Virus record (IMG/VR): IMGVR_UViG_640753023_000013
Length of the DNA: 40,738 nt
DNA from: a virus
Lineage: Duplodnaviria; Heunggongvirae; Uroviricota; Caudoviricetes
Strand: one strand, 5' to 3'
Part shown: positions 3,361 to 35,090 of the stretch, piece by piece
Numbering within the stretch: the stretch's first letter is position 1
Layout of the letters: each line of letters opens with the position of its first letter
The notes under the pieces: model-generated
What the model saw: the letters and a program-made list of their open reading frames with translations, nothing else
Database searches by the model: none
What the model was told of the DNA's origin: nothing
Made by a program: the position numbers and the translations under genes

Positions 3361-3388
3361 CCCGCAAAATATTGCGGGCTTTTTTTTA
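3361..3388 (+). terminator. Hairpin plus T-run oriented for + strand transcription, between tailspike and lysis cassette
   Basis: CCCGCAAAATATTGCGGG followed by tttttttt; orientation is opposite to the flanking genes. Confidence 0.4.
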
Positions 3389-6300
3389 ACGTTCTTCCAG
3401 AGACTGAATCCGCTCTTTTATCTTATCCATTTCTCTGCGCTGCCATGCTGCCTCGATATAGAATAAGAGATCAGGTCTGACCCCCCATCTAGATCCTGCT
3501 GGCGTTATTTCAACGCGCTCAATGATGTCTTCCATTACCATCACTGGATTATCATCCTCATCAACAATGATGCTCCCGTCATTATCAGTCAGCGGCATTT
3601 CCCTTTGGCCAGTAATGACGTCATCATATACTGCGGGATAATCGTCATAGCAAAGAAAGGCATAGCGGCATGTTGTGCTTTCTTCTTCCATGAGTCCGTG
3701 AGAAATAAGAACATCACGAAGTTGCTGCGCGATTACACCATGATGTATCCTCGCCCCTTCTTCCCCCTTTATAGCGACAGCGTTCAGCCATTTATAAGCG
3801 ATATACCTGACGTCACCCCAGGCATCCAGCAATGCTTCGTCAGGAGAGACCGGCTCTGTCTTTAATGTTCCGTCACTGGTAACCACAGGATTGGAGCCAA
3901 GATAAACTGTCGAGAACCTGTTTCCCGGACCACCAAGAGCATTTACATTATCAAGATAAGGTTTAACATCTCCGTTCTCAAAAAGATGTTCGAGTGCGTT
4001 ATATACCGCGCGACGTGGAGTACTGCTTCCGGAACCATGCAACGTTATCATTGCACCATCTGCTGAAGACGTTGTTTCACCTCCGCTAACGATTAATCTC
4101 TGAGCGGTAACATCATCAGACGGTACTTTCTTCGCAATAATGGCGTAATTACCCTCAAGTTTGACTTCCGCGCGAACTTGTCCTGATGTACCTGCATGGA
4201 CAGTCAGTGACTGGACGGCAACATCATCTGTGAAATCAACGGGTACAGGAACCGTCCTCACGCCTGACGTCGACATAAAAGTAGGAAGCGTTCTGTTAGG
4301 AGTGGCTCCGTAGACAAAATCCCTTGAAACAAATTCTTCCTGTTTAATTTTCACCCTGAAACAATACAAATCAGCCGGGTGACCATCGTGAACATAAGGA
4401 TATTTTCTGTTGTTATCCCCTATGCTCCATGGGTTTAGAAAGTCTTCCCCACCGAAAATGTAGTACAGCCAGTTGTCTTTGATACAAACTGAACCAACAC
4501 CAACCGCAGAGTTAACTATTCCGCCCTGATAAATCTGATCAGTAACATTAACCCACTCTACATTATCCAGACTCCACTCATTGACGTTAACTCTGGTCAT
4601 AAATGTTCTTGGATAATTTCCTGCATAACGGTTATCAGGTTCTCCTCCTTCCCACTCACCAAATGCGCGCTCACTGCCAAAAATAATCAGCTCATCGCCA
4701 ACTTTGGCAAAAGGAAGGTTTGAGTGATGAACATTATTTGGGAAGCGAAGAGAATTCCATGATGTACCTAAATCAGAGCTTCTGTGCAATGAACTACCGG
4801 GTTGAGTACTTAATGTCCCCCTGGTCGTCAGATACAGAATGCCATCATAATATTTTACACATGGCTCAGATGCATTCGCCTCATATTCTGCAGGTATGCG
4901 TCTGCGAACAAAGCTACCAGGAGAACCGAAAGCATCAGAGAAATAGAGTATCCCAAGCTCGCGTGGACCAATATCACCATTATGGTAGCCAACAGCAAAA
5001 CTGTTATCGCTAATCGTCGCAAAACTGTGAATCTCAGTAACAGGAGTGCTTCCGTCAACAAAAGAAGGAATAGTTCCAAGACTGGTTTTTCTCCATGGTG
5101 ACGAGTGAAATGATGTACCAAAACTCCAGTATCTACCCTCGTTATTCTGATCCACATCCTGGGTATTTTGCGTCGTAACTGTAAAAGTATTTTTATCAAT
5201 AACAGTAGTCACCGTCATATTCCCGGTAACACCTGTAACACCAGAGTTTGAGAAGTTGACAAAATCACCAGCAAATAATCCGTGATCAGTAATGCGAATA
5301 TAAGCGACTTGCTGATTTGCTGCTTTCGTTATACCACCATAAACGCGAAGGCTGCGACTCATTGGGCGATCCCACAACTCTGCAACCTGCAGTTTATTTC
5401 CGCTCACGGTCCGCGTCTCAATTACAGCAAAAAGGCGATTTCTGACAACCCCCATACTCATGCAGTGATAGTTAACTGTGGGATAGTTTTCATGTAAATC
5501 TGTAAGCCATTCCGGCGTTGTCCAGGTCTTCCCGTCATCTCCTGAGCGAACCCATGCAACATGGAGGTTATTTACACCATGGCGGTCTCCAGCCATAAAA
5601 GGCGCATAGATGACATTGTCATATACAAACGTTTTATCCTGCGTCCAGGCGTTGTACCACGGTGTATCTGTAATTTTAAATAACTCTCCCTGGATAAAAT
5701 CTTCAGAAGCATAAAAAAGAGGCTGGCCCGGTATTCTCTCAAATAAAAAACGAGCATTTTTAAATCGACTGACATCCGGAAGAGTTGATACTTTAAAAGT
5801 AAGCCCTAATCCGTCAATTTTATAACCTGGAGATGAGGCTTCAAGGCACGCGCTTATTGCAGTGGAATCGTCATTTATACCATCACCAACAGCTCCAAAA
5901 TCTTTGGGGCTAATAGCATCACGCATTTTATCCTGGAACGTTCGGTACACAGCCCCAGAACCATACTGAATAAACCAACCAAAACCACCAACAACCCCGG
6001 CGATTGCAGCATCGACATAATTACGCATTGAGCGATTATTTACAGCGTCCTGCTCAAATGATGGATCTGCAAGGTTAGAAATTTTGTTTTGCTTTGCATC
6101 GTAATATTTTGCAAGCAAAGATGGTTTCATCAATGCACGTCTGAACCACCCAAAACATTGCTGGATCAGCATCGTCAGGTAGTCAAAGGCATCTTCATGC
6201 ACTTCGGGGAAAAATTTTCCCTGATTGCGAAGGTCTGTCTCCTGCACTACATCAAGCACACGATCTATCGTAATTCGCCATCCAGTAGCAAGCGGAGACG

Positions 6301-6505
6301 GAAGAACCACAGAACCGCCACTATAAGTGCCCGCCCCAGTTACCGTATAACCGGTATCCAGAACCAATTCTGTTACGTTCCCGTTCAGGTCAGACACCTG
6401 AACAACCAGGTCTGATTTTCTGAAAATTCGAAAAGTATACGGAAACGATGTCGTAACGCCGTTACCGGTGTATTCGTTGTGGTCAACTTCGGTTGAGACC
6501 GTCAT
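3386..6505 (-). CDS. Tailspike: N-terminal particle-binding domain, sialidase-like beta-propeller with two Asp-boxes, C-terminal intramolecular chaperone (peptidase S74-like); probable capsule depolymerase
   Basis: Asp-boxes SGDDGKTW and SSDLGTSW; C-terminus resembles the T5 L-shaped-fibre/endosialidase chaperone domain (SDGTLKTEP, FLCYDDY). Confidence 0.8.
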   Translation of the reverse strand: MTVSTEVDHNEYTGNGVTTSFPYTFRIFRKSDLVVQVSDLNGNVTELVLDTGYTVTGAGTYSGGSVVLPSPLATGWRITIDRVLDVVQETDLRNQGKFFPEVHEDAFDYLTMLIQQCFGWFRRALMKPSLLAKYYDAKQNKISNLADPSFEQDAVNNRSMRNYVDAAIAGVVGGFGWFIQYGSGAVYRTFQDKMRDAISPKDFGAVGDGINDDSTAISACLEASSPGYKIDGLGLTFKVSTLPDVSRFKNARFLFERIPGQPLFYASEDFIQGELFKITDTPWYNAWTQDKTFVYDNVIYAPFMAGDRHGVNNLHVAWVRSGDDGKTWTTPEWLTDLHENYPTVNYHCMSMGVVRNRLFAVIETRTVSGNKLQVAELWDRPMSRSLRVYGGITKAANQQVAYIRITDHGLFAGDFVNFSNSGVTGVTGNMTVTTVIDKNTFTVTTQNTQDVDQNNEGRYWSFGTSFHSSPWRKTSLGTIPSFVDGSTPVTEIHSFATISDNSFAVGYHNGDIGPRELGILYFSDAFGSPGSFVRRRIPAEYEANASEPCVKYYDGILYLTTRGTLSTQPGSSLHRSSDLGTSWNSLRFPNNVHHSNLPFAKVGDELIIFGSERAFGEWEGGEPDNRYAGNYPRTFMTRVNVNEWSLDNVEWVNVTDQIYQGGIVNSAVGVGSVCIKDNWLYYIFGGEDFLNPWSIGDNNRKYPYVHDGHPADLYCFRVKIKQEEFVSRDFVYGATPNRTLPTFMSTSGVRTVPVPVDFTDDVAVQSLTVHAGTSGQVRAEVKLEGNYAIIAKKVPSDDVTAQRLIVSGGETTSSADGAMITLHGSGSSTPRRAVYNALEHLFENGDVKPYLDNVNALGGPGNRFSTVYLGSNPVVTSDGTLKTEPVSPDEALLDAWGDVRYIAYKWLNAVAIKGEEGARIHHGVIAQQLRDVLISHGLMEEESTTCRYAFLCYDDYPAVYDDVITGQREMPLTDNDGSIIVDEDDNPVMVMEDIIERVEITPAGSRWGVRPDLLFYIEAAWQRREMDKIKERIQSLEER

Positions 6506-6609
6506 GTTAAATCTCCAGATAGTCGCAGCACCCGTTGCGCCGCATATCTGGTTATTCTATTACCTGGAAAACCACATATGGATAGAAAGGCTGTAAATAC
6601 GAATAGATA

Positions 6610-6624
6610 TTACCTTTCAGGTAA
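6610..6624. promoter_or_regulatory. Operator palindrome TTACC-TTTCA-GGTAA (site 1, perfect)
   Basis: Between tailspike start and the LexA-box gene. Confidence 0.6.
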
Positions 6625-6661
6625 TTTGCAAAACGTGCTGGATAGCAAACAAATTATTTGC

Positions 6662-6681
6662 TACTGTATAAATATACAGTT
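6662..6681. promoter_or_regulatory. LexA (SOS) box
   Basis: TACTGTATAAATATACAGTT, 18/20 match to consensus TACTGTATATATATACAGTA, 20 bp upstream of the ATG at 6701. Confidence 0.8.
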
Positions 6682-6700
6682 ATTGCATGGAGAAGATAAG

Positions 6701-6958
6701 ATGCAGCAGTATCACTATCCACTGGAAGACGGATTTACCGAAAGGATTCACACGCCGGGAGGCGTCAGGTCACTGGTGGAGGGATCGCACTTGATGAAAT
6801 TACTCCGGGATCTCGATAAGGATGGATTTAATGTCGATGGCCCACTTGCCGAACTGACTGCACTGATTAACTACGTCACCAGCTCACAGATGTCTATGCG
6901 GGATCTGCAAACACATCTCGACTATTGTGCCGAACAATTACGAAAACAAACCAGATAA
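6701..6958 (+). CDS. Small antirepressor-related protein (homolog of the C-terminal domain of the downstream BRO-N protein)
   Basis: ATG with GGAGAAG RBS; residues 20-85 align with the C-terminus of the 7274-7969 product (LMxLL, DG, RDxQTH); ORF track start 6578 rejected. Confidence 0.6.
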   Translation: MQQYHYPLEDGFTERIHTPGGVRSLVEGSHLMKLLRDLDKDGFNVDGPLAELTALINYVTSSQMSMRDLQTHLDYCAEQLRKQTR

Positions 6959-7092
6959 GGTTTGCAATTACCAAGTGGAGTGCTTATATTTACCTTTGAG
7001 ATAAATTTACATCGCACTCCTCTTGTGCCATAGTAATCGGGCACTGGCAAAATCCAGTGCCGGGATTGGCGTCCCGGATTACTAAAAGGCGC

Positions 7093-7118
7093 ATTCACCG
7101 CGCAAGCGGTTTTTTTAT
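7093..7118 (+). terminator. Short hairpin plus T-run in the leader of the BRO-N gene
   Basis: CCGCgcaaGCGG followed by ttttttt. Confidence 0.4.
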
Positions 7119-7273
7119 GCGTATAGCACGGCCACATTCGTATTATGGTGGGCTGTGTGGGGGCACCGAAAGGTGCGCCGGGTCCTTTTAGCCGGTTACG
7201 CCAACCCTGCACAGTTCACCACCAACCGATTGGCGTCGGTAGTGGTGATTAACCAGACTAAAAGGTAACCACT

Positions 7274-7969
7274 ATGACAGCTACAAAAAGCACGTCCATT
7301 TTTTCTTTCGAATCCCAAGCCGATATACGGGTAATCGTCATTAATGGTGAGCCATGGTTTATCGCTTCAGATGTTTGTCGGGCTATAGGCATAGCAAACC
7401 ATCGAGATGCTGTTCGAAAACTTGATGATGATGAGAAGGGCGTCGCTTCAACCGACACCCCTGGCGGTGAGCAAGAATCGATCATCATCTCCGAGTCAGG
7501 CCTCTACACACTGATCCTCCGCTGCCGCGACGCAGTGACACCAGGCACTATCCCCTACCGCTTTCGTAAATGGGTTACAGGTGAGGTTCTTCCTCAGATC
7601 CGCCGCACCGGAAGCTACATTAAAAACTCGCTCCCGCAGGAAGAACGCATAAAGATGGTTGCCGACCAGGTAGCCAACGCCACGGCGTCAGCAGTAATGC
7701 AGGCGATGAAGATAGAGAACAAAACCTACAGCGCCCCGCTGAAGCCCGGCTACCGCAGCCTGATTCACTCGCCGTCTGGTGTTCTCGGCCTGACGGAAAA
7801 CTCACTGCTGATGAATCTGCTGAACCAGTTACAGGAAGACGGGCACGACGTATCGGGCGCGGCGGCGGAGGTGACCACCATGTTCTGCTACATCGTCGGT
7901 GTGAGTAAATGCCTGCGTGATATCCAGACCCACGCGGAATACATCAACGACAAGGCAGGGTTCTTCTGA
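7274..7969 (+). CDS. BRO-N domain antirepressor-type protein
   Basis: N-terminal Bro-N signature (IRVIVINGEPWFIASDVCRAIG, DDDEKG); C-terminal domain shared with the 6701 gene. Confidence 0.8.
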   Translation: MTATKSTSIFSFESQADIRVIVINGEPWFIASDVCRAIGIANHRDAVRKLDDDEKGVASTDTPGGEQESIIISESGLYTLILRCRDAVTPGTIPYRFRKWVTGEVLPQIRRTGSYIKNSLPQEERIKMVADQVANATASAVMQAMKIENKTYSAPLKPGYRSLIHSPSGVLGLTENSLLMNLLNQLQEDGHDVSGAAAEVTTMFCYIVGVSKCLRDIQTHAEYINDKAGFF

Positions 7970-8041
7970 CGGGCGGCGGCACAGGGATGAGCCTTTAAAT
8001 AATTCTGTACAGATTGCAGACTGGGGGTGAATAGCGTACTA

Positions 8042-8056
8042 TTACCTCAAGGGTAA
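8042..8056. promoter_or_regulatory. Operator palindrome TTACC-TCAAG-GGTAA (site 2, perfect), overlapping a candidate promoter (TTGCAG-N17-TACTAT)
   Basis: 60 bp upstream of the moron gene at 8116. Confidence 0.55.
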
Positions 8057-8115: not shown

Positions 8116-8748
8116 ATGAGAACAAATACAACAAGAAAAGCGATGCCATACATTATCCCAGAAGCAGATTTCGATAGAAAACTGAACATGTCTGAGAAGA
8201 ACACTAGTCACACCGAAAGCTACTTAGCGAAAGGTGTGGTTGATTTCGTTCTTCCGGGATTCACAACACCTTATGGTTATCGCCTTGTAAAATCTTGTAA
8301 TGGCGATCATTACAGAATGATTACTACCAGCGATACTCCAGAAACGGTGTATGCGGTTAAGTTAATCTTTCGGGAAGATATCGTCGAAGCCAAAAGAACA
8401 TGTACGCAGATCATGGTATGGCGTACGCCTAATGTTATTCATGACCGTGCTGTTCATGGTTTGCCTCAGATTTTTTTTCAGTTCTTCCTAGAGCAATATG
8501 CGATCGTTGTATCTGATGAGCAACAAACAATCGATGGGAGAAGATTCTGGGAAAGAATGATTTCTTGGGCTATAAACACCCCAGGATATAATGTATACGT
8601 TTCAGATGGCTCTGAAGAAGATAGACCTCTTAGCTTCATGACATCATGGGATGATTTCTATAGCCAGTGGGCTGATTTCTGTTGGGGCAGTGATAAAGAT
8701 GTGCATACCCACAGACTACTGGTTATAAGCAAAGATAAACTGCATTAA
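8116..8748 (+). CDS. Hypothetical protein, AT-rich moron with own terminator; no recognisable domain
   Basis: 210 aa, GGGAGG RBS, AT-rich composition unlike neighbours. Confidence 0.65.
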   Translation: MRTNTTRKAMPYIIPEADFDRKLNMSEKNTSHTESYLAKGVVDFVLPGFTTPYGYRLVKSCNGDHYRMITTSDTPETVYAVKLIFREDIVEAKRTCTQIMVWRTPNVIHDRAVHGLPQIFFQFFLEQYAIVVSDEQQTIDGRRFWERMISWAINTPGYNVYVSDGSEEDRPLSFMTSWDDFYSQWADFCWGSDKDVHTHRLLVISKDKLH

Positions 8749-8774: not shown

Positions 8775-8846
8775 GTGGACGAAACAAAAGTCAGTGCTAC
8801 ACTCATTGTCGCCACATTGAGGTGGCTTATAGATGGAAATTTCACA

Positions 8847-9008
8847 ATGAAAAAAGCATTTGCTGCACTGTTCGTTTTGTTGTCTCTGGTAGCTTCAACT
8901 CAGGCCTTTGCCGGTCGTTGTCAGCACGACAGCGACACTGCTGCTGACGGCTCCCGCTGCGGTGGGCGTTCTGCGGATTCCCGCCCGGGTGGCGGTGGCA
9001 TTCGTTAA
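8847..9008 (+). CDS. Small secreted peptide (signal peptide plus about 30-aa mature part with two Cys)
   Basis: MKKAFAALFVLLSLVASTQAFA signal peptide; 53 codons. Confidence 0.4.
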   Translation: MKKAFAALFVLLSLVASTQAFAGRCQHDSDTAADGSRCGGRSADSRPGGGGIR

Positions 9009-9039: not shown

Positions 9040-9420
9040 TCACGCAACGCAATTATTACCGCGCCATGTAACATTTTTAATAATCTTATCAGCACCAAAC
9101 TCAACGTAAACAGAGCAACTGAAATGGAGTGTATAACCGCCATCAGTTGTTGCGTATGTGTTTGAATATATAGTATTACCAATTAGATTAGACGTAGTAT
9201 TATACGTTGTGGTTTGTGGTACGTTATAACTACCAGAGCTTGAGTAAACATACACTCTGTTTCCATCTGGAGATGTAAGCTCTCCCTGAGGATACCCCCA
9301 CTGCTGAACCATTGCGTCTATACTCTGCCCGCGCCACGTAAGCATATTTCTTTCAAACTGTGCAGCTGACTGGCATCCAACGAGAAGCATAAATCCAAAA
9401 ATCAAAAATACTTTTCTCAT
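9040..9420 (-). CDS. Prophage lipoprotein (candidate superinfection-exclusion or conversion protein)
   Basis: Signal peptide with lipobox LLVGC, Thr/Ser/Tyr-rich mature part; ATG at 9420 (track start 9456 rejected). Confidence 0.6.
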   Translation of the reverse strand: MRKVFLIFGFMLLVGCQSAAQFERNMLTWRGQSIDAMVQQWGYPQGELTSPDGNRVYVYSSSGSYNVPQTTTYNTTSNLIGNTIYSNTYATTDGGYTLHFSCSVYVEFGADKIIKNVTWRGNNCVA

Positions 9421-9639
9421 AATTACCCCTATCATGGAAAAACAGCACCAATCCACAAATTAACTAGTTATTTTATTATTCTTCCGAACAATACAATTCC
9501 GAATACTACAAAGCCGAACCATGCCGCTGCACGCAACAGAGATTCCAATTGAAACCCATTTTTATCAAAATGTATGAATAGCATAAAAACGCTGCACATA
9601 TTAGTACAATAAAAGTTATTTGAACCATCATATCTCCTT

Positions 9640-34352: not shown

Positions 34353-34937
34353 ATGAAAAGTATCCAGGACGTCCGCAGGCAAAATCTCAACGACTTGATC
34401 GACCGTGAATTCAATGGTGTTCAGACGCGGATGGCAGAAAAACTTGGAACTCAGGCAAATCTGGTAAACCGCTGGGCTCTTGGCAAGAAGGTTATCGGCG
34501 ACCAGGTTGCGCGAAAAATTGAAGCTGCCGCCAATAAACCACGTAACTGGCTTGATATCGATCGCTCGCTTTCTCAGGAAGGTTTTCAGCCTGTCGGCCC
34601 GAGCGATATAGGTCAGCTGGCGGCTCACAACCTGGAACGCTGGATGAGCGAAAGCCGCGACCTTTCAACACAGGGAAAACTTCACCGCGCATCCGGCGTC
34701 GCCCAGGTGACAATCAGCCGCCTGTTAAACAATGAGGTCAGCGTTTCCATTTCCACCCTGGAGAATGTTGCATCCGCATTCGGGCGTCACGGATATGAAC
34801 TACTGATTCACCCGCACGACCCTGCGACTATCAACTATGACCGCTCACGCTACGCATTGTTACCCGAAACCGAGAAAGCAAAGATCGAAAGTTACATTGA
34901 ATTTGTCATCAACCAGAACGAAAAAAGCAAACAATAA
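34353..34937 (+). CDS. Prophage repressor with two HTH (XRE-type) domains and no S24 peptidase domain
   Basis: Two HTH-like segments (QTRMAEKLGTQANLVNRW and LHRASGVAQVTISRLL); no Ala-Gly/Ser-Lys self-cleavage module. Confidence 0.7.
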   Translation: MKSIQDVRRQNLNDLIDREFNGVQTRMAEKLGTQANLVNRWALGKKVIGDQVARKIEAAANKPRNWLDIDRSLSQEGFQPVGPSDIGQLAAHNLERWMSESRDLSTQGKLHRASGVAQVTISRLLNNEVSVSISTLENVASAFGRHGYELLIHPHDPATINYDRSRYALLPETEKAKIESYIEFVINQNEKSKQ

Positions 34938-35028: not shown

Positions 35029-35057
35029 TTGACACCAAACCAAATAAGCATAATTAT
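35029..35057 (+). promoter_or_regulatory. Candidate sigma70 early-left promoter (TTGACA, 16-17 bp spacer, TAATTA/AATTAT)
   Basis: Consensus -35; -10 candidates directly followed by operator site 12. Confidence 0.4.
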
Positions 35058-35071
35058 TACCTCAACGGTAA
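35057..35071. promoter_or_regulatory. Operator palindrome TTACC-TCAAC-GGTAA (site 12, perfect)
   Basis: Overlaps the -10/+1 region of the early-left promoter. Confidence 0.6.
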
Positions 35072-35090
35072 CAGACCGAGGTAACAAGTT

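What the first reader, a model, noticed from the sequence alone, without database searches (positions are those of the whole stretch)
6662..7969. LexA box controlling a pair of antirepressor-type genes
A near-consensus SOS box sits directly upstream of an 85-aa gene whose product matches the C-terminal domain of the downstream BRO-N protein. This matches the known scheme in Gifsy-type and 186/Fels-2 phages, where LexA represses an antirepressor that inactivates a non-cleavable repressor. The stand-alone C-domain protein may be the minimal repressor-binding module.
Basis: partly seen in the sequence, partly recalled or inferred. Interest (0 to 1): 0.65.

Follow-up and report, generated by a model that had tools for sequence, protein, structure and literature searches.

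The report
SOS-controlled antirepressor plus RNA-gated paralogue
The LexA box and small gene are the E. coli version of an already characterised prophage induction switch. The second, larger antirepressor gene is not simply under that box: it sits in its own cassette with an antisense RNA covering its ribosome site.

Summary
A near-consensus LexA box (6662-6681) lies 20 nt upstream of an 85-aa gene (6701-6958). That protein is 42% identical to the C-terminal domain of the BRO-N protein at 7274-7969.

The window is a phiV10/epsilon15-like (Uetakevirus) prophage, and this region is identical to one in E. coli APEC O1. The 85-aa protein is the orthologue (about 87%) of Salmonella phage SPC32H Ant, which was crystallised with its repressor Rep (PDB 5D50). 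The window's Rep (34353-34937) is a homologue with no S24 peptidase domain. So the LexA-Ant-Rep part is already known.

It holds:
- two conserved promoter-like sites flanking a Rep-operator-like palindrome;
- an IsrK RNA with its terminator;
- a C4 antisense RNA whose loops pair with sites in IsrK and over the BRO-N ribosome-binding site.

These RNA pairings covary in 14 phages. The cassette occurs on its own elsewhere, so the two genes are not a plain LexA operon.

My reading is a two-tier switch: SOS releases small Ant, Rep falls, and the RNA-gated second antirepressor follows. This is a modest variant of known systems.

The parts
6610..6624 (.). Rep-operator-like palindrome TTACC-N5-GGTAA, upstream of the ant promoter and shared with the divergent tail-fibre gene region
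   Evidence: There are 13 sites with at most 1 mismatch in the window against 0.65 expected, clustered around rep. The equivalent site in epsilon15 is annotated 'protein_bind repressor, lysogeny'. It is conserved in all relatives.
6639..6667 (+). Predicted ant promoter: -35 TGGATA (6639-6644), 17-nt spacer, extended -10 TGcTACTGT (-10 hexamer 6662-6667). Inference only.
   Evidence: The blocks CTGGATA and TGnTACTGT are conserved across window, phiV10, ZX5, Tyrion, SPC32H and epsilon15. The consensus scanner did not flag it. No transcription start site was mapped here.
6662..6681 (.). LexA (SOS) box TACTGTATAAATATACAGTT
   Evidence: SPC32N carries ACAG>AAAG at the same position.
6701..6958 (+). 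ant: small (85 aa) antirepressor, orthologue of SPC32H Ant
   Evidence: 86.7% identity to SPC32H_020 'ant'. PDB 5D50_E at E 1.4e-46. phrog_450. dN/dS 0.07-0.08.
6962..6990 (+). Promoter-like site P2, TTGCAA-N17-TATATT
   Evidence: Found. Equivalent sites are at the same place in Tyrion (TTGTAA-17-TATTAT) and KpST11phi3.2 (TTGAAA-18-TATTAT).
6990..7004 (.). Rep-operator-like palindrome TTACCTTTGAGATAA (1 mismatch). It overlaps the P2 -10/+1 and abuts the P3 -35.
   Evidence: The core is perfect in phiV10, Tyrion, KpST11phi3.2, Kp4865-1 and E. coli F11, while the N5 spacer varies. The main early promoter at 35029-35072 has the same -10/operator overlap.
7006..7034 (+). Promoter-like site P3 (PisrK), TTTACA-N17-TGcCATAGT. 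It would start transcription at about 7041, the IsrK 5' end.
   Evidence: Identical hexamers occur in Tyrion, KpST11phi3.2 and Kp4865-1.
7041..7116 (+). IsrK-type RNA. It carries the decoy sites b1 (7066-7072 TTGGCGT) and a1 (7082-7089 CTAAAAGG) and an intrinsic terminator (stem 7097-7110 plus a T run).
   Evidence: Rfam RF01394 at 77.9 bits (gathering 50). RF03163 c4-a1b1 at 45.1 bits (gathering 46.7) over 7028-7080. Terminator. Complementarity.
7141..7226 (+). C4 antisense RNA, with loops a' (7184-7191 CCTTTTAG) and b' (7198-7204 ACGCCAA)
   Evidence: Rfam RF01695 at 77.7 bits (gathering 45). The loops covary with their targets in 14 loci.
7230..7265 (+). C4 target sites b2 (7230-7236) and a2 (7258-7265). 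a2 covers the Shine-Dalgarno AAGG of the BRO-N gene.
   Evidence: The ATG is at 7274, 8 nt after a2.
7274..7969 (+). Second antirepressor: Bro-N domain (aa 17-107), linker, and an Ant-like C-terminal domain (aa about 149-229)
   Evidence: Pfam Bro-N. 5D50_E at E 2.7e-13. phrog_130 and phrog_450. 99% identical to ZX5 ORF4, whose over-expression lowered lysogeny (PMC9782041). dN/dS of the Ant-like domain is 0.2-0.33.
34353..34937 (+). rep: the presumed target repressor
   Evidence: 43% identical to SPC32H Rep over its full length. PDB 5D50_A at E 3.5e-42. HTH domains only, no peptidase S24. Flanked by operator-like sites.

Best explanation
This is a two-tier antirepressor module of a phiV10/epsilon15-like prophage.

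Tier 1 is known by orthology. In the lysogen, host LexA sits on the box at 6662-6681, which overlaps the ant promoter. DNA damage removes LexA. The 85-aa Ant is then made, binds the non-cleavable repressor Rep and breaks up its DNA-binding tetramer. This derepresses the early promoters.

Tier 2 is inferred. The BRO-N protein carries a paralogous Ant domain and lies in an autonomous P1-immI / Gifsy-1-isrK type cassette. The cassette has its own promoters (P2, P3) with a Rep operator between them. They produce IsrK (terminated at 7117), and read-through produces C4 RNA and the BRO-N mRNA. C4 loops a' and b' pair with b2 and a2 over the BRO-N ribosome-binding site and keep translation off. IsrK carries identical decoy sites (b1, a1) that can relieve this block.

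On this model the second antirepressor is made only after Rep has fallen and the IsrK:C4 balance allows it. That would reinforce induction once started, and would keep the protein silent in the lysogen and during establishment.

LexA therefore controls the small gene directly and the large one only indirectly.
For: Shown for tier 1:
- The box is unique in the window and near-consensus. It is conserved at the same position across the genus.
- SPC32H and SPC32N differ in this promoter region only in the box.
- Ant orthology and solved Rep-Ant complexes.
- Rep has no S24 domain.
- Reviews state that SPC32H Ant is made on LexA cleavage and inhibits the repressor (PMC7380047). Ant is a tetramer that splits Rep tetramers (PMC9638917) through Rep's C-terminal domain (PMC9986798).

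Shown for tier 2 anatomy:
- IsrK and C4 are above Rfam gathering scores, also in Tyrion, both Klebsiella phages, F11 and phiV10, but not in SPC32H.
- There is exact a'/b' complementarity to two target sets, and a2 lies on the Shine-Dalgarno.
- In 14 loci there are at least 10 different a' loops and 4 different b' loops. Every b' has exact b1 and b2 matches of at least 7 nt. For a', 12 of 14 loci have such an a2 match and 10 of 14 an a1 match.
- The cassette promoters and operator are conserved at 75-78% overall DNA identity.
- In Kp4865-1 the operator-P3-IsrK-C4-BRO unit is separated from small ant by an opposite-strand gene.
- The -10/operator overlap at P2 matches that of the main early promoter next to rep.
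- Both Ant domains are under purifying selection.
- Over-expression of the 99%-identical ZX5 ORF4 cut lysogens from 1e9 to 1e6 and rep transcription by 75%.
- In Gifsy-1, IsrK supplied in trans activates translation of the downstream BRO-type anrP (PMC4825925).
Against: - Nothing was measured in this phage: no LexA binding, no transcription start site, no RNA and no protein interaction.
- The ant promoter hexamers are weak and were not found by the consensus scan.
- The operator at 6990-7004 has one core mismatch in this window.
- That TTACC-N5-GGTAA is the Rep operator rests on its clustering around rep and on a GenBank note for epsilon15. I could not read the SPC32H papers.
- No terminator lies between the ant stop and IsrK, so some LexA-dependent read-through into the cassette is likely.
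- The Ant-like domain is only 42% identical to Ant, so it may bind a different Rep.
- phiV10 has a frameshifted Ant-like domain, and SPC32H and epsilon15 lack the cassette. Tier 2 is therefore dispensable.
Confidence: 0.6

Rival explanations
1. The two genes form a single LexA-repressed operon and are co-induced by SOS from the promoter at the box. The RNA elements in between are incidental.
For: The genes are on the same strand, 315 bp apart. There is no terminator between the ant stop (6958) and IsrK. There is only one LexA box in the phage.
Against: - An intrinsic terminator lies at 7097-7117, inside the IsrK match.
- Two promoter-like sites are conserved in position in diverged relatives.
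- C4 covers the ribosome-binding site, with strong covariation.
- The cassette is autonomous in Kp4865-1, Stx phages, SfV and APSE.
- SPC32H and epsilon15 end the ant transcript with a terminator and have no second gene.
Confidence: 0.12
2. An RNA relay from SOS to the second gene. LexA-derepressed ant transcripts run on to the IsrK terminator, so each carries IsrK (the a1/b1 decoy) as a 3' UTR. The SOS burst of this RNA titrates C4 and unlocks BRO-N translation. The box would then control both genes, the second one post-transcriptionally.
For: - No terminator lies between ant and IsrK in the window, Tyrion or KpST11phi3.2. Cassette-less epsilon15 has one annotated right after ant.
- IsrK in trans activates anrP translation more than 100-fold in Gifsy-1, by pairing with the C4-equivalent region.
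- a1 and b1 are exact copies of a2 and b2.
Against: This is purely inferential. In Kp4865-1 ant and the cassette are unlinked, so adjacency is not required. Read-through transcripts would also add C4 one-for-one. Translation of ant may interfere with folding of the 3' region.
Confidence: 0.25
3. The BRO-N protein is an anti-immunity or cross-talk factor. It would be aimed at the Rep of a different resident prophage, as with P22 or P1 Ant or the Gifsy trans-acting antirepressors, rather than reinforcing induction of its own phage.
For: - phiV10 annotates it 'putative anti-immunity protein'.
- The Ant-like domain is diverged (42%) from the phage's own Ant.
- E. coli F11 carries three genes with this domain in one prophage, which suggests a repertoire.
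- C4-type immI loci define secondary immunity in P1 and P7 (my own knowledge; Citron & Schuster 1990 as cited).
Against: - ZX5 ORF4 over-expression affected ZX5's own lysogeny and rep transcription.
- A Rep-operator-like site on the cassette promoters would silence it in a homoimmune lysogen.
- Operator cores look the same across the genus.
Confidence: 0.2
4. The cassette is a decaying passenger with no present function.
For: It is frameshifted in phiV10 and absent from SPC32H and epsilon15.
Against: - dN/dS is well below 1 in both domains.
- RNA loop-target covariation is maintained.
- At least 80% of 6600-7300 (box, ant, IsrK, C4 and the start of the BRO-N gene) is present in 281 of 5426 complete E. 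coli genomes.
- ZX5 ORF4 gives an over-expression phenotype.
Confidence: 0.04

Closest known systems
Salmonella phage SPC32H LexA-Ant-Rep antirepression system (Kim & Ryu 2013 J Virol 87:11775; Kim et al. 2016 PNAS 113:E2480; PDB 5D50, 5D4Z)
   Same: Same genus, and the same locus between the tail-spike and virion-protein genes. Ant is about 87% identical. The LexA box is at the same position before the same ribosome-binding site. Rep is homologous over its full length and lacks an S24 domain.
   Different: Rep is only 43% identical. SPC32H has a single ant gene; in epsilon15 a terminator is annotated right after it. SPC32H has no IsrK, C4 or BRO-N paralogue.
Phage P1/P7 immI region (c4 antisense RNA - icd - ant1/2)
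   Same: A C4 RNA of the same Rfam family. Its two loops are complementary to an upstream (a1/b1) and a downstream (a2/b2) target set. The downstream set covers a ribosome-binding site ahead of an antirepressor gene.
   Different: Here the target covers the Shine-Dalgarno of the antirepressor gene itself. I could not show an icd-like coupled ORF. The upstream targets lie in a terminated IsrK RNA. The cargo protein is unrelated to P1 Ant, and the cassette promoters carry this phage's own Rep-operator-like site.
Gifsy-1 isrK - orf45 (STnc1160) - anrP locus (Hershko-Shalev et al. 2016, PMC4825925)
   Same: IsrK with its own promoter and leaky terminator, followed by a C4-like region and a BRO-type antirepressor-like gene that is transcribed but translationally silent.
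   Different: A LexA-controlled paralogous small antirepressor lies immediately upstream. The role of an orf45-like small ORF (7155-7268 or 7145-7252) is unresolved. Nothing here points to an AntQ-type output.
E. coli phage vB_EcoP_ZX5 ORF4 'anti-repressor' (Li et al. 2022, PMC9782041)
   Same: A 99% identical BRO-N protein, with about 98.7% identical DNA across this region. Over-expression pushes the phage towards lysis.
   Different: That study does not mention LexA or SPC32H (0 occurrences). In the deposited record the small Ant is 'hypothetical protein' and the C4 region is 'ash family protein'.
Coliphage 186 Tum / Fels-2 Tum and Gifsy GfoA/GfhA (LexA-controlled antirepressors)
   Same: The same logic: LexA represses a small antirepressor that inactivates a non-cleavable repressor (PMC7380047 and PMC3121763).
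   Different: I found no sequence relationship: no Pfam, NCBIfam or PDB hit links them. The Ant fold and target repressor family differ, so these are analogues, not relatives.

Membership tests
SPC32H-type LexA-Ant-Rep antirepression (Uetakevirus) | Small (about 86 aa) Ant homologous to SPC32H Ant | tested here: met
   86.7% identity by tblastn to SPC32H_020. PDB 5D50_E at E 1.4e-46.
SPC32H-type LexA-Ant-Rep antirepression (Uetakevirus) | LexA box overlapping the ant promoter | tested here: met
   The box is present, unique and positionally conserved, and the SPC32N mutation falls in it. Overlap with the promoter is inferred from the 20-nt distance to the start codon. LexA binding was not tested.
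SPC32H-type LexA-Ant-Rep antirepression (Uetakevirus) | Rep homologue without a RecA-dependent autocleavage domain | tested here: met
   43% identity over the full length. 5D50_A at E 3.5e-42. Pfam finds HTH domains only, no Peptidase_S24.
SPC32H-type LexA-Ant-Rep antirepression (Uetakevirus) | Ant physically binds Rep and dissociates its tetramer | not testable with these tools
   Known for the orthologues (PDB 5D50; PMC9638917). It needs a pull-down or SEC with the window's proteins.
P1/P7-type C4 antisense immI module | C4 RNA matching the family covariance model | tested here: met
   RF01695 at 77.7 bits against gathering 45, with a full-length match.
P1/P7-type C4 antisense immI module | Loops a' and b' complementary to an upstream and a downstream target pair, with the downstream pair over a ribosome-binding site | tested here: met
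   Exact 8-nt and 7-nt complements at 7082-7089/7066-7072 and 7258-7265/7230-7236. a2 covers the Shine-Dalgarno.
P1/P7-type C4 antisense immI module | Loop-target pairing maintained by compensatory change | tested here: met
   14 loci have at least 10 a' variants and 4 b' variants. All 14 have exact b1 and b2 matches; 12 of 14 have an exact a2 match.
P1/P7-type C4 antisense immI module | Translationally coupled leader ORF (icd) between C4 and ant | tested here: inconclusive
   Small ORFs overlap C4 at 7145-7252 and 7155-7268. They have no Pfam or NCBIfam hit. Indels in relatives shift the frame. ZX5 annotates the second as 'ash family protein'.
Gifsy-1 isrK-orf45-anrP locus | IsrK RNA with its own promoter and a rho-independent terminator | tested here: met
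   RF01394 at 77.9 bits against gathering 50. Terminator at 7097-7117 and a promoter-like site ending 7 nt before the IsrK 5' end.
Gifsy-1 isrK-orf45-anrP locus | IsrK in trans activates translation of the downstream antirepressor-like gene | not testable with these tools
   Shown for Gifsy-1 only.
Gifsy-1 isrK-orf45-anrP locus | Downstream protein homologous to AnrP | not tested
   The Gifsy-1 sequence was not fetched. Cargo genes behind IsrK-C4 differ between phages: PA28 Ant is unrelated.
186 Tum / Gifsy GfoA-type LexA-controlled antirepressors | Sequence homology to Tum, GfoA or GfhA | tested here: not met
   Pfam, NCBIfam and PDB searches of the 85-aa protein return only the SPC32H Ant family. 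The resemblance is functional only.
Bro-N domain proteins (PF02498) | Bro-N domain above the Pfam gathering score | tested here: met
   76.7 bits against 25.6, aa 17-107.

The most novel reading that the evidence does not exclude
The SOS signal reaches the second antirepressor through RNA and through the repressor, forming a feed-forward and feedback circuit.
- LexA-derepressed ant mRNA ends at the IsrK terminator, so it delivers the a1/b1 decoy as a 3' UTR that sponges C4.
- Ant-mediated loss of Rep opens the operator-guarded cassette promoters.
- Together these switch on a BRO-N-tethered copy of the same Rep-binding domain, which makes induction irreversible after LexA recovers.

More generally, the roughly 80-aa Ant domain would be the portable repressor-specificity module. 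It would explain how BRO-N, AntA, Rha and ORF6N 'antirepressors' choose their targets.
Probability: 0.2. Interest if true: 0.6.

Novelty: new variant of a known kind. Interest (0 to 1): 0.38.

Why it matters
This prophage family is common. At least 80% of the box-ant-IsrK-C4 stretch (6600-7300) is found in 281 of 5426 complete E. coli genomes, including APEC O1. Its members carry serotype-converting and capsule-specific tail genes.

The small Ant is still 'hypothetical protein' in RefSeq and 'unknown function' in PHROGs (phrog_450), although its orthologue has a crystal structure with its repressor. Correct annotation would let SOS-inducibility of these prophages be predicted from sequence.

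The tandem arrangement offers a compact test case. Two copies of one repressor-binding domain sit side by side, one transcriptionally gated by LexA and one translationally gated by C4/IsrK. It can show how phages layer a damage signal, an RNA timer and repressor feedback. It can also show what the widespread BRO-N 'antirepressor' heads add to a C-terminal effector that evidently works alone.

Tried and rejected
- I could not read either SPC32H primary paper (PMC3807360, PMC4983836). What I say about them rests on memory, GenBank and PDB annotations, and citing papers.
- My first translation used wrong coordinates (6702 instead of 6701).
- The 126-aa extended ORF from ATG 6578 (also called in databases, e.g. 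P0013) is rejected. It would read through the operator and the LexA box, the internal ATG has a good Shine-Dalgarno, and the crystallised orthologue is 86 aa.
- Pfam DUF724 on the 85-aa protein scores 17 bits against a cutoff of 38, so it is noise.
- A strong sigma-70 promoter upstream of ant was not found by the scanner. I propose a weak extended -10 promoter from conservation only.
- Hexamer combinations using TATACA, TATAAA or TACAGT as the -10 were rejected, because no conserved -35 lies at 16-18 nt.
- Homology of the BRO-N protein to the Ant that follows IsrK-C4 in Stx phage PA28: none found.
- PADLOC defence models on the neighbouring cargo ORFs and on both Ant proteins: no hits.
- NCBIfam gave nothing for Ant, the BRO-N protein, the small ORFs over C4 or the cargo ORFs.
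- I did not run structure prediction or fold search. Sequence matches to PDB 5D50 already settle homology, and a single-chain model cannot test Rep binding.
Full report
**What the window is.** The 1.6 kb around the finding is 96-99% identical to Uetakevirus phages and prophages: phiV10, vB_EcoP_ZX5, TL-2011b and the O157 typing phages 9 and 10. The stretch 6600-7300 is 100% identical to the E. coli APEC O1 chromosome. The finding lies between the divergent tail-fibre gene (3386-6505, minus strand) and the virion-protein genes (from 9640, minus strand). This is the position where epsilon15 and SPC32H carry a single small gene.

**Checking the observation.**
- TACTGTATAAATATACAGTT at 6662-6681 has two mismatches to the 20-nt LexA consensus, both outside the CTGT/ACAG cores. 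It is the only site within three mismatches in 40.7 kb, and no shuffle produced one.
- It ends 20 nt before ATG 6701, and a GGAGAAG Shine-Dalgarno lies between.
- The ORF 6701-6958 encodes 85 aa. The downstream ORF 7274-7969 encodes 231 aa, with a Bro-N domain at residues 17-107.
- The small protein aligns with residues 150-223 of the large one at 42% identity, E 4e-16.

**The small gene is a known antirepressor.**
- tblastn finds the 85-aa protein at 86.7% identity in Salmonella phages SPC32H and SPC32N, where the gene is annotated 'ant: anti-repressor protein'.
- It matches chain E ('Anti-repressor protein', 86 aa) of PDB 5D50 at E 1.4e-46.
- The window's 194-aa HTH protein at 34353-34937 is 43% identical over its full length to SPC32H Rep. 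It matches 5D50 chain A ('Repressor') at 3.5e-42. It has HTH domains but no S24 peptidase domain.
- Aligning the promoter regions shows the box at the same place in window, phiV10, ZX5, SPC32H and epsilon15. In that 217-bp alignment, SPC32H and SPC32N differ only by ACAG>AAAG in the box.
- From memory of Kim & Ryu 2013, which I could not open, that is the mutation that makes Ant constitutive and SPC32N a clear-plaque phage.
- A review confirms that in SPC32H an Ant made after LexA self-cleavage inhibits the repressor by protein-protein interaction (PMC7380047). Other papers summarise that Ant is a tetramer which splits the Rep tetramer (PMC9638917) through Rep's C-terminal tetramerisation domain (PMC9986798).
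It is the already characterised system of this phage genus rather than a Gifsy or 186 look-alike.

**What lies between the two genes.** The 315-bp spacer is not empty. Rfam gives three hits on the plus strand:
- IsrK at 7041-7116 (77.9 bits, gathering 50);
- the 'a1, b1 targets of C4' motif at 7028-7080 (45.1 bits, just under its 46.7 threshold);
- C4 antisense RNA at 7141-7226 (77.7 bits, gathering 45).

An intrinsic terminator (stem 7097-7110 plus a T run) closes IsrK. The C4 loops a' (CCTTTTAG, 7184-7191) and b' (ACGCCAA, 7198-7204) have exact complements twice:
- b1 (7066-7072) and a1 (7082-7089), inside IsrK;
- b2 (7230-7236) and a2 (7258-7265), just before the BRO-N gene.

a2 covers the AAGG Shine-Dalgarno 8 nt before ATG 7274. 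This is the layout of the P1/P7 immI region and of the Gifsy-1 isrK-orf45-anrP locus. In Gifsy-1 the downstream BRO-type gene is transcribed but not translated unless IsrK is supplied in trans (PMC4825925).

**Is the RNA gate real?**
- I extracted the module from 14 loci: window, phiV10, Tyrion, two Klebsiella phages, E. coli F11, Stx phages PA28 and Nil2, SfV, APSE-7, Hafnia yong2, Lys8385Vzw, 2H10 and PhiR12_1.
- They carry at least ten different a' loops and four different b' loops (ACGCCAA, AGACCAA, GTCTCAA, GTGCAAA).
- Every b' has exact b1 and b2 complements of at least 7 nt in its own flanks. For a', 12 of 14 loci have such an a2 match and 10 of 14 an a1 match (first seen).
- That is extensive compensatory change in three places at once. 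I take the C4-target interaction as evolutionarily maintained.
- The 250-nt RNA from 7041 folds far better than shuffles (z = -5.1), and the predicted fold contains the IsrK hairpins, the terminator and the C4 stem.

**The cassette has its own, probably Rep-guarded, promoters.**
- Two sigma-70-like sites lie between the ant stop and IsrK. P2 is TTGCAA-N17-TATATT (6962-6990). P3 is TTTACA-N17-CATAGT with an upstream TG (7006-7034), and it would start transcription at about 7041, the first base of the IsrK model.
- Both recur at the same positions in Tyrion and KpST11phi3.2, which are only 75-78% identical overall. P3 recurs in Kp4865-1.
- Between them lies TTACCTTTGAGATAA (6990-7004). This is a one-mismatch copy of a palindrome, TTACC-N5-GGTAA, that occurs 13 times in the window against 0.65 expected. 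Five copies lie within about 500 bp of rep.
- The epsilon15 record annotates the copy upstream of its gp19 as a repressor binding site. SPC32H has ten perfect copies, seven of them within about 1.7 kb of rep.
- In phiV10, Tyrion, both Klebsiella phages and F11 the copy between P2 and P3 has a perfect core, while its N5 spacer varies.
- The strongest early promoter of the window, TTGACA-N17-AATTAT at 35029-35057 just downstream of rep, has the same design: its -10 is overlapped by an operator at 35056-35072.
- I therefore infer that P2 and P3 are Rep-repressed. This is inference. I could not read the paper that defines the SPC32H operators.

**The cassette is autonomous and accessory.**
- SPC32H has neither IsrK nor C4. 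SPC32H and epsilon15 have no second ant gene, and in epsilon15 a terminator is annotated right after ant.
- In Kp4865-1 the unit operator-P3-IsrK-C4-BRO lies 1.3 kb from small ant, with an opposite-strand 283-aa gene between them.
- IsrK-C4 modules about 70-80% identical at the DNA level precede unrelated 'Ant' genes in Stx phages, and sit in SfV and APSE. The APSE authors already noted C4 complementarity upstream of the adjacent BRO-N gene (PMC7313666).
- In phiV10 the BRO-N protein is frameshifted after residue 181, which destroys the Ant-like domain.
- None of this fits a simple LexA-controlled two-gene operon.
- However, no terminator separates the ant stop from IsrK in the window, Tyrion or KpST11phi3.2. 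LexA-dependent transcripts must therefore run at least to the IsrK terminator.

**Is the second protein an antirepressor?**
- Its C-terminal domain matches 5D50 chain E at 2.7e-13 and phrog_450, the small-Ant family, at 5.5e-36.
- Against Tyrion and KpST11phi3.2, dN/dS is 0.07-0.08 for small ant (from Tyrion and SPC32H; dS against KpST11phi3.2 is saturated). It is 0.09-0.21 for the Bro-N domain and 0.20-0.33 for the Ant-like domain. Both genes are under purifying selection.
- The protein is 230/231 identical to ORF4 of phage ZX5. Li et al. 2022 over-expressed ORF4. The lysogen titre fell from 1e9 to 1e6, and repressor transcription fell by 75% (PMC9782041).
- That paper does not mention LexA or SPC32H. 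In the deposited record the small ant is 'hypothetical protein' and the C4 region is 'ash family protein'.

**The Ant domain as a module.**
- A profile of the domain searched against 1.84 billion representative proteins found only 60 clusters. Most are stand-alone proteins of 80-100 aa.
- Several carry the domain at the C-terminus, behind Bro-N, AntA, Phage_pRha or ORF6N heads.
- The E. coli F11 prophage has three genes with it: the small Ant, a BRO-N fusion, and a 280-aa protein that RefSeq names 'phage antirepressor N-terminal domain-containing'.
- Stx phage Nil2 antA, which also follows IsrK-C4, has a weak match (9e-6).
It also suggests that the variable heads add something else, which is still unknown.

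**Most likely mechanism.**
- Step 1 is shown by orthology. LexA holds ant off, DNA damage releases it, and Ant disables Rep.
- Step 2 is inferred. Loss of Rep opens P2 and P3. Most transcripts stop at the IsrK terminator, and read-through yields C4 and the BRO-N mRNA.
- Step 3 is inferred from conserved pairing and from the P1 and Gifsy-1 experiments. C4 blocks the BRO-N ribosome-binding site, and IsrK's decoy sites counteract C4. The second antirepressor therefore appears only above a threshold.
- The likely benefit is a second supply of the Rep-binding domain that does not depend on SOS and locks in induction. The gene meanwhile stays silent in the lysogen and during establishment.
- I put about 0.9 on step 1 and about 0.5 on steps 2 and 3 as stated.

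**Rivals.**
- A plain LexA operon (0.12).
- An RNA relay, in which the SOS-induced ant-IsrK transcript titrates C4 (0.25; compatible with the main model).
- An anti-immunity role against other prophages' Reps (0.2).
- A decaying passenger (0.04).

**Novelty and score.** The LexA-Ant-Rep switch is already known in the same genus. IsrK/C4-gated BRO-type antirepressors are also known. What I did not find described is their tandem combination, with the same effector domain in both genes and a Rep-operator-like site on the cassette promoters. That makes this a new variant of known kinds and a useful annotation correction, not a surprise. Interest is 0.38.

Noticed in passing
window 6610, 6990, 8042, 25716, 28867, 28885, 31934, 31996, 33898, 34235, 34283, 34995, 35057: The palindrome TTACC-N5-GGTAA occurs 13 times with at most 1 mismatch, against 0.65 expected. 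It clusters around rep and overlaps the -10 of promoter-like sites. It is probably the Rep operator set of the whole phage. SPC32H has 10 perfect copies with a similar distribution.
   Followed up: partly
window 8013-8056 and 8116-8748: A weak promoter-like site, TTGCAG-N17-TACTAT, is immediately followed by a perfect operator core (8042-8056). It precedes a 210-aa ORF of unknown function (phrog_1349; no Pfam, NCBIfam or PADLOC hit). SPC32H and phiV10 lack this gene at this locus. It may be a Rep-controlled cargo gene.
   Followed up: partly
window 9040-9456 (-): A 138-aa ORF with a lipoprotein-like N-terminus (…LLVGC…), phrog_3716 of unknown function, in the same accessory insert. A further 77-aa ORF at 8775-9008 has a signal-peptide-like start.
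   Followed up: no
window 3386-6505 (-): RefSeq annotates the 1039-aa tail fibre as 'endosialidase catalytic beta-propeller domain-containing protein' in APEC O1 and F11. This epsilon15-like prophage therefore appears to target the K1 polysialic-acid capsule.
   Followed up: no
window 7145-7252 and 7155-7268 (+): Two small ORFs (35 and 37 aa) overlap C4 RNA. The second ends 6 nt before the BRO-N start and is annotated 'ash family protein' in ZX5. It may correspond to Gifsy-1 orf45, whose translation is coupled to anrP. It has no family hit, and indels in relatives shift the frame.
   Followed up: partly
window 6578-6958 (+); proteins P0013, P0017, P0031-P0037: Many database entries call a 126/127-aa N-terminally extended version of Ant that reads through the operator and the LexA box; one cluster has 833 member sequences. 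This is almost certainly a start-codon miscall. PHROGs lists the family (phrog_450) as 'unknown function', and RefSeq as 'hypothetical protein'.
   Followed up: partly
L001 (phiV10) 3772-4451: The phiV10 BRO-N gene is frameshifted after codon 181, splitting it into p23 (194 aa) and p22 (29 aa). The reference phage of this group therefore lacks an intact second Ant domain. The ZX5 paper's figure of '39% homology' between ZX5 ORF4 and phiV10 ORF23 does not match the 99% identity over the first 181 aa.
   Followed up: yes
L012 (E. coli F11 prophage) 4778-5650 (-): A third gene with the Ant-like C-terminal domain (E 8.7e-39) lies in the same prophage, fused to a 'phage antirepressor N-terminal domain'. 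It is about 900 bp downstream of the BRO-N gene, on the opposite strand.
   Followed up: partly
window about 6553-6585 (tail-fibre upstream region): Blocks CATTCTATTACC and AACC..ATATG.AT are strongly conserved in all relatives. On the minus strand ATTCTA reads TAGAAT, a good -10. It was flagged with TTCATA-N17 in the Klebsiella loci, next to an ATTACC operator half-site. This is probably the tail-fibre promoter and its control region.
   Followed up: no
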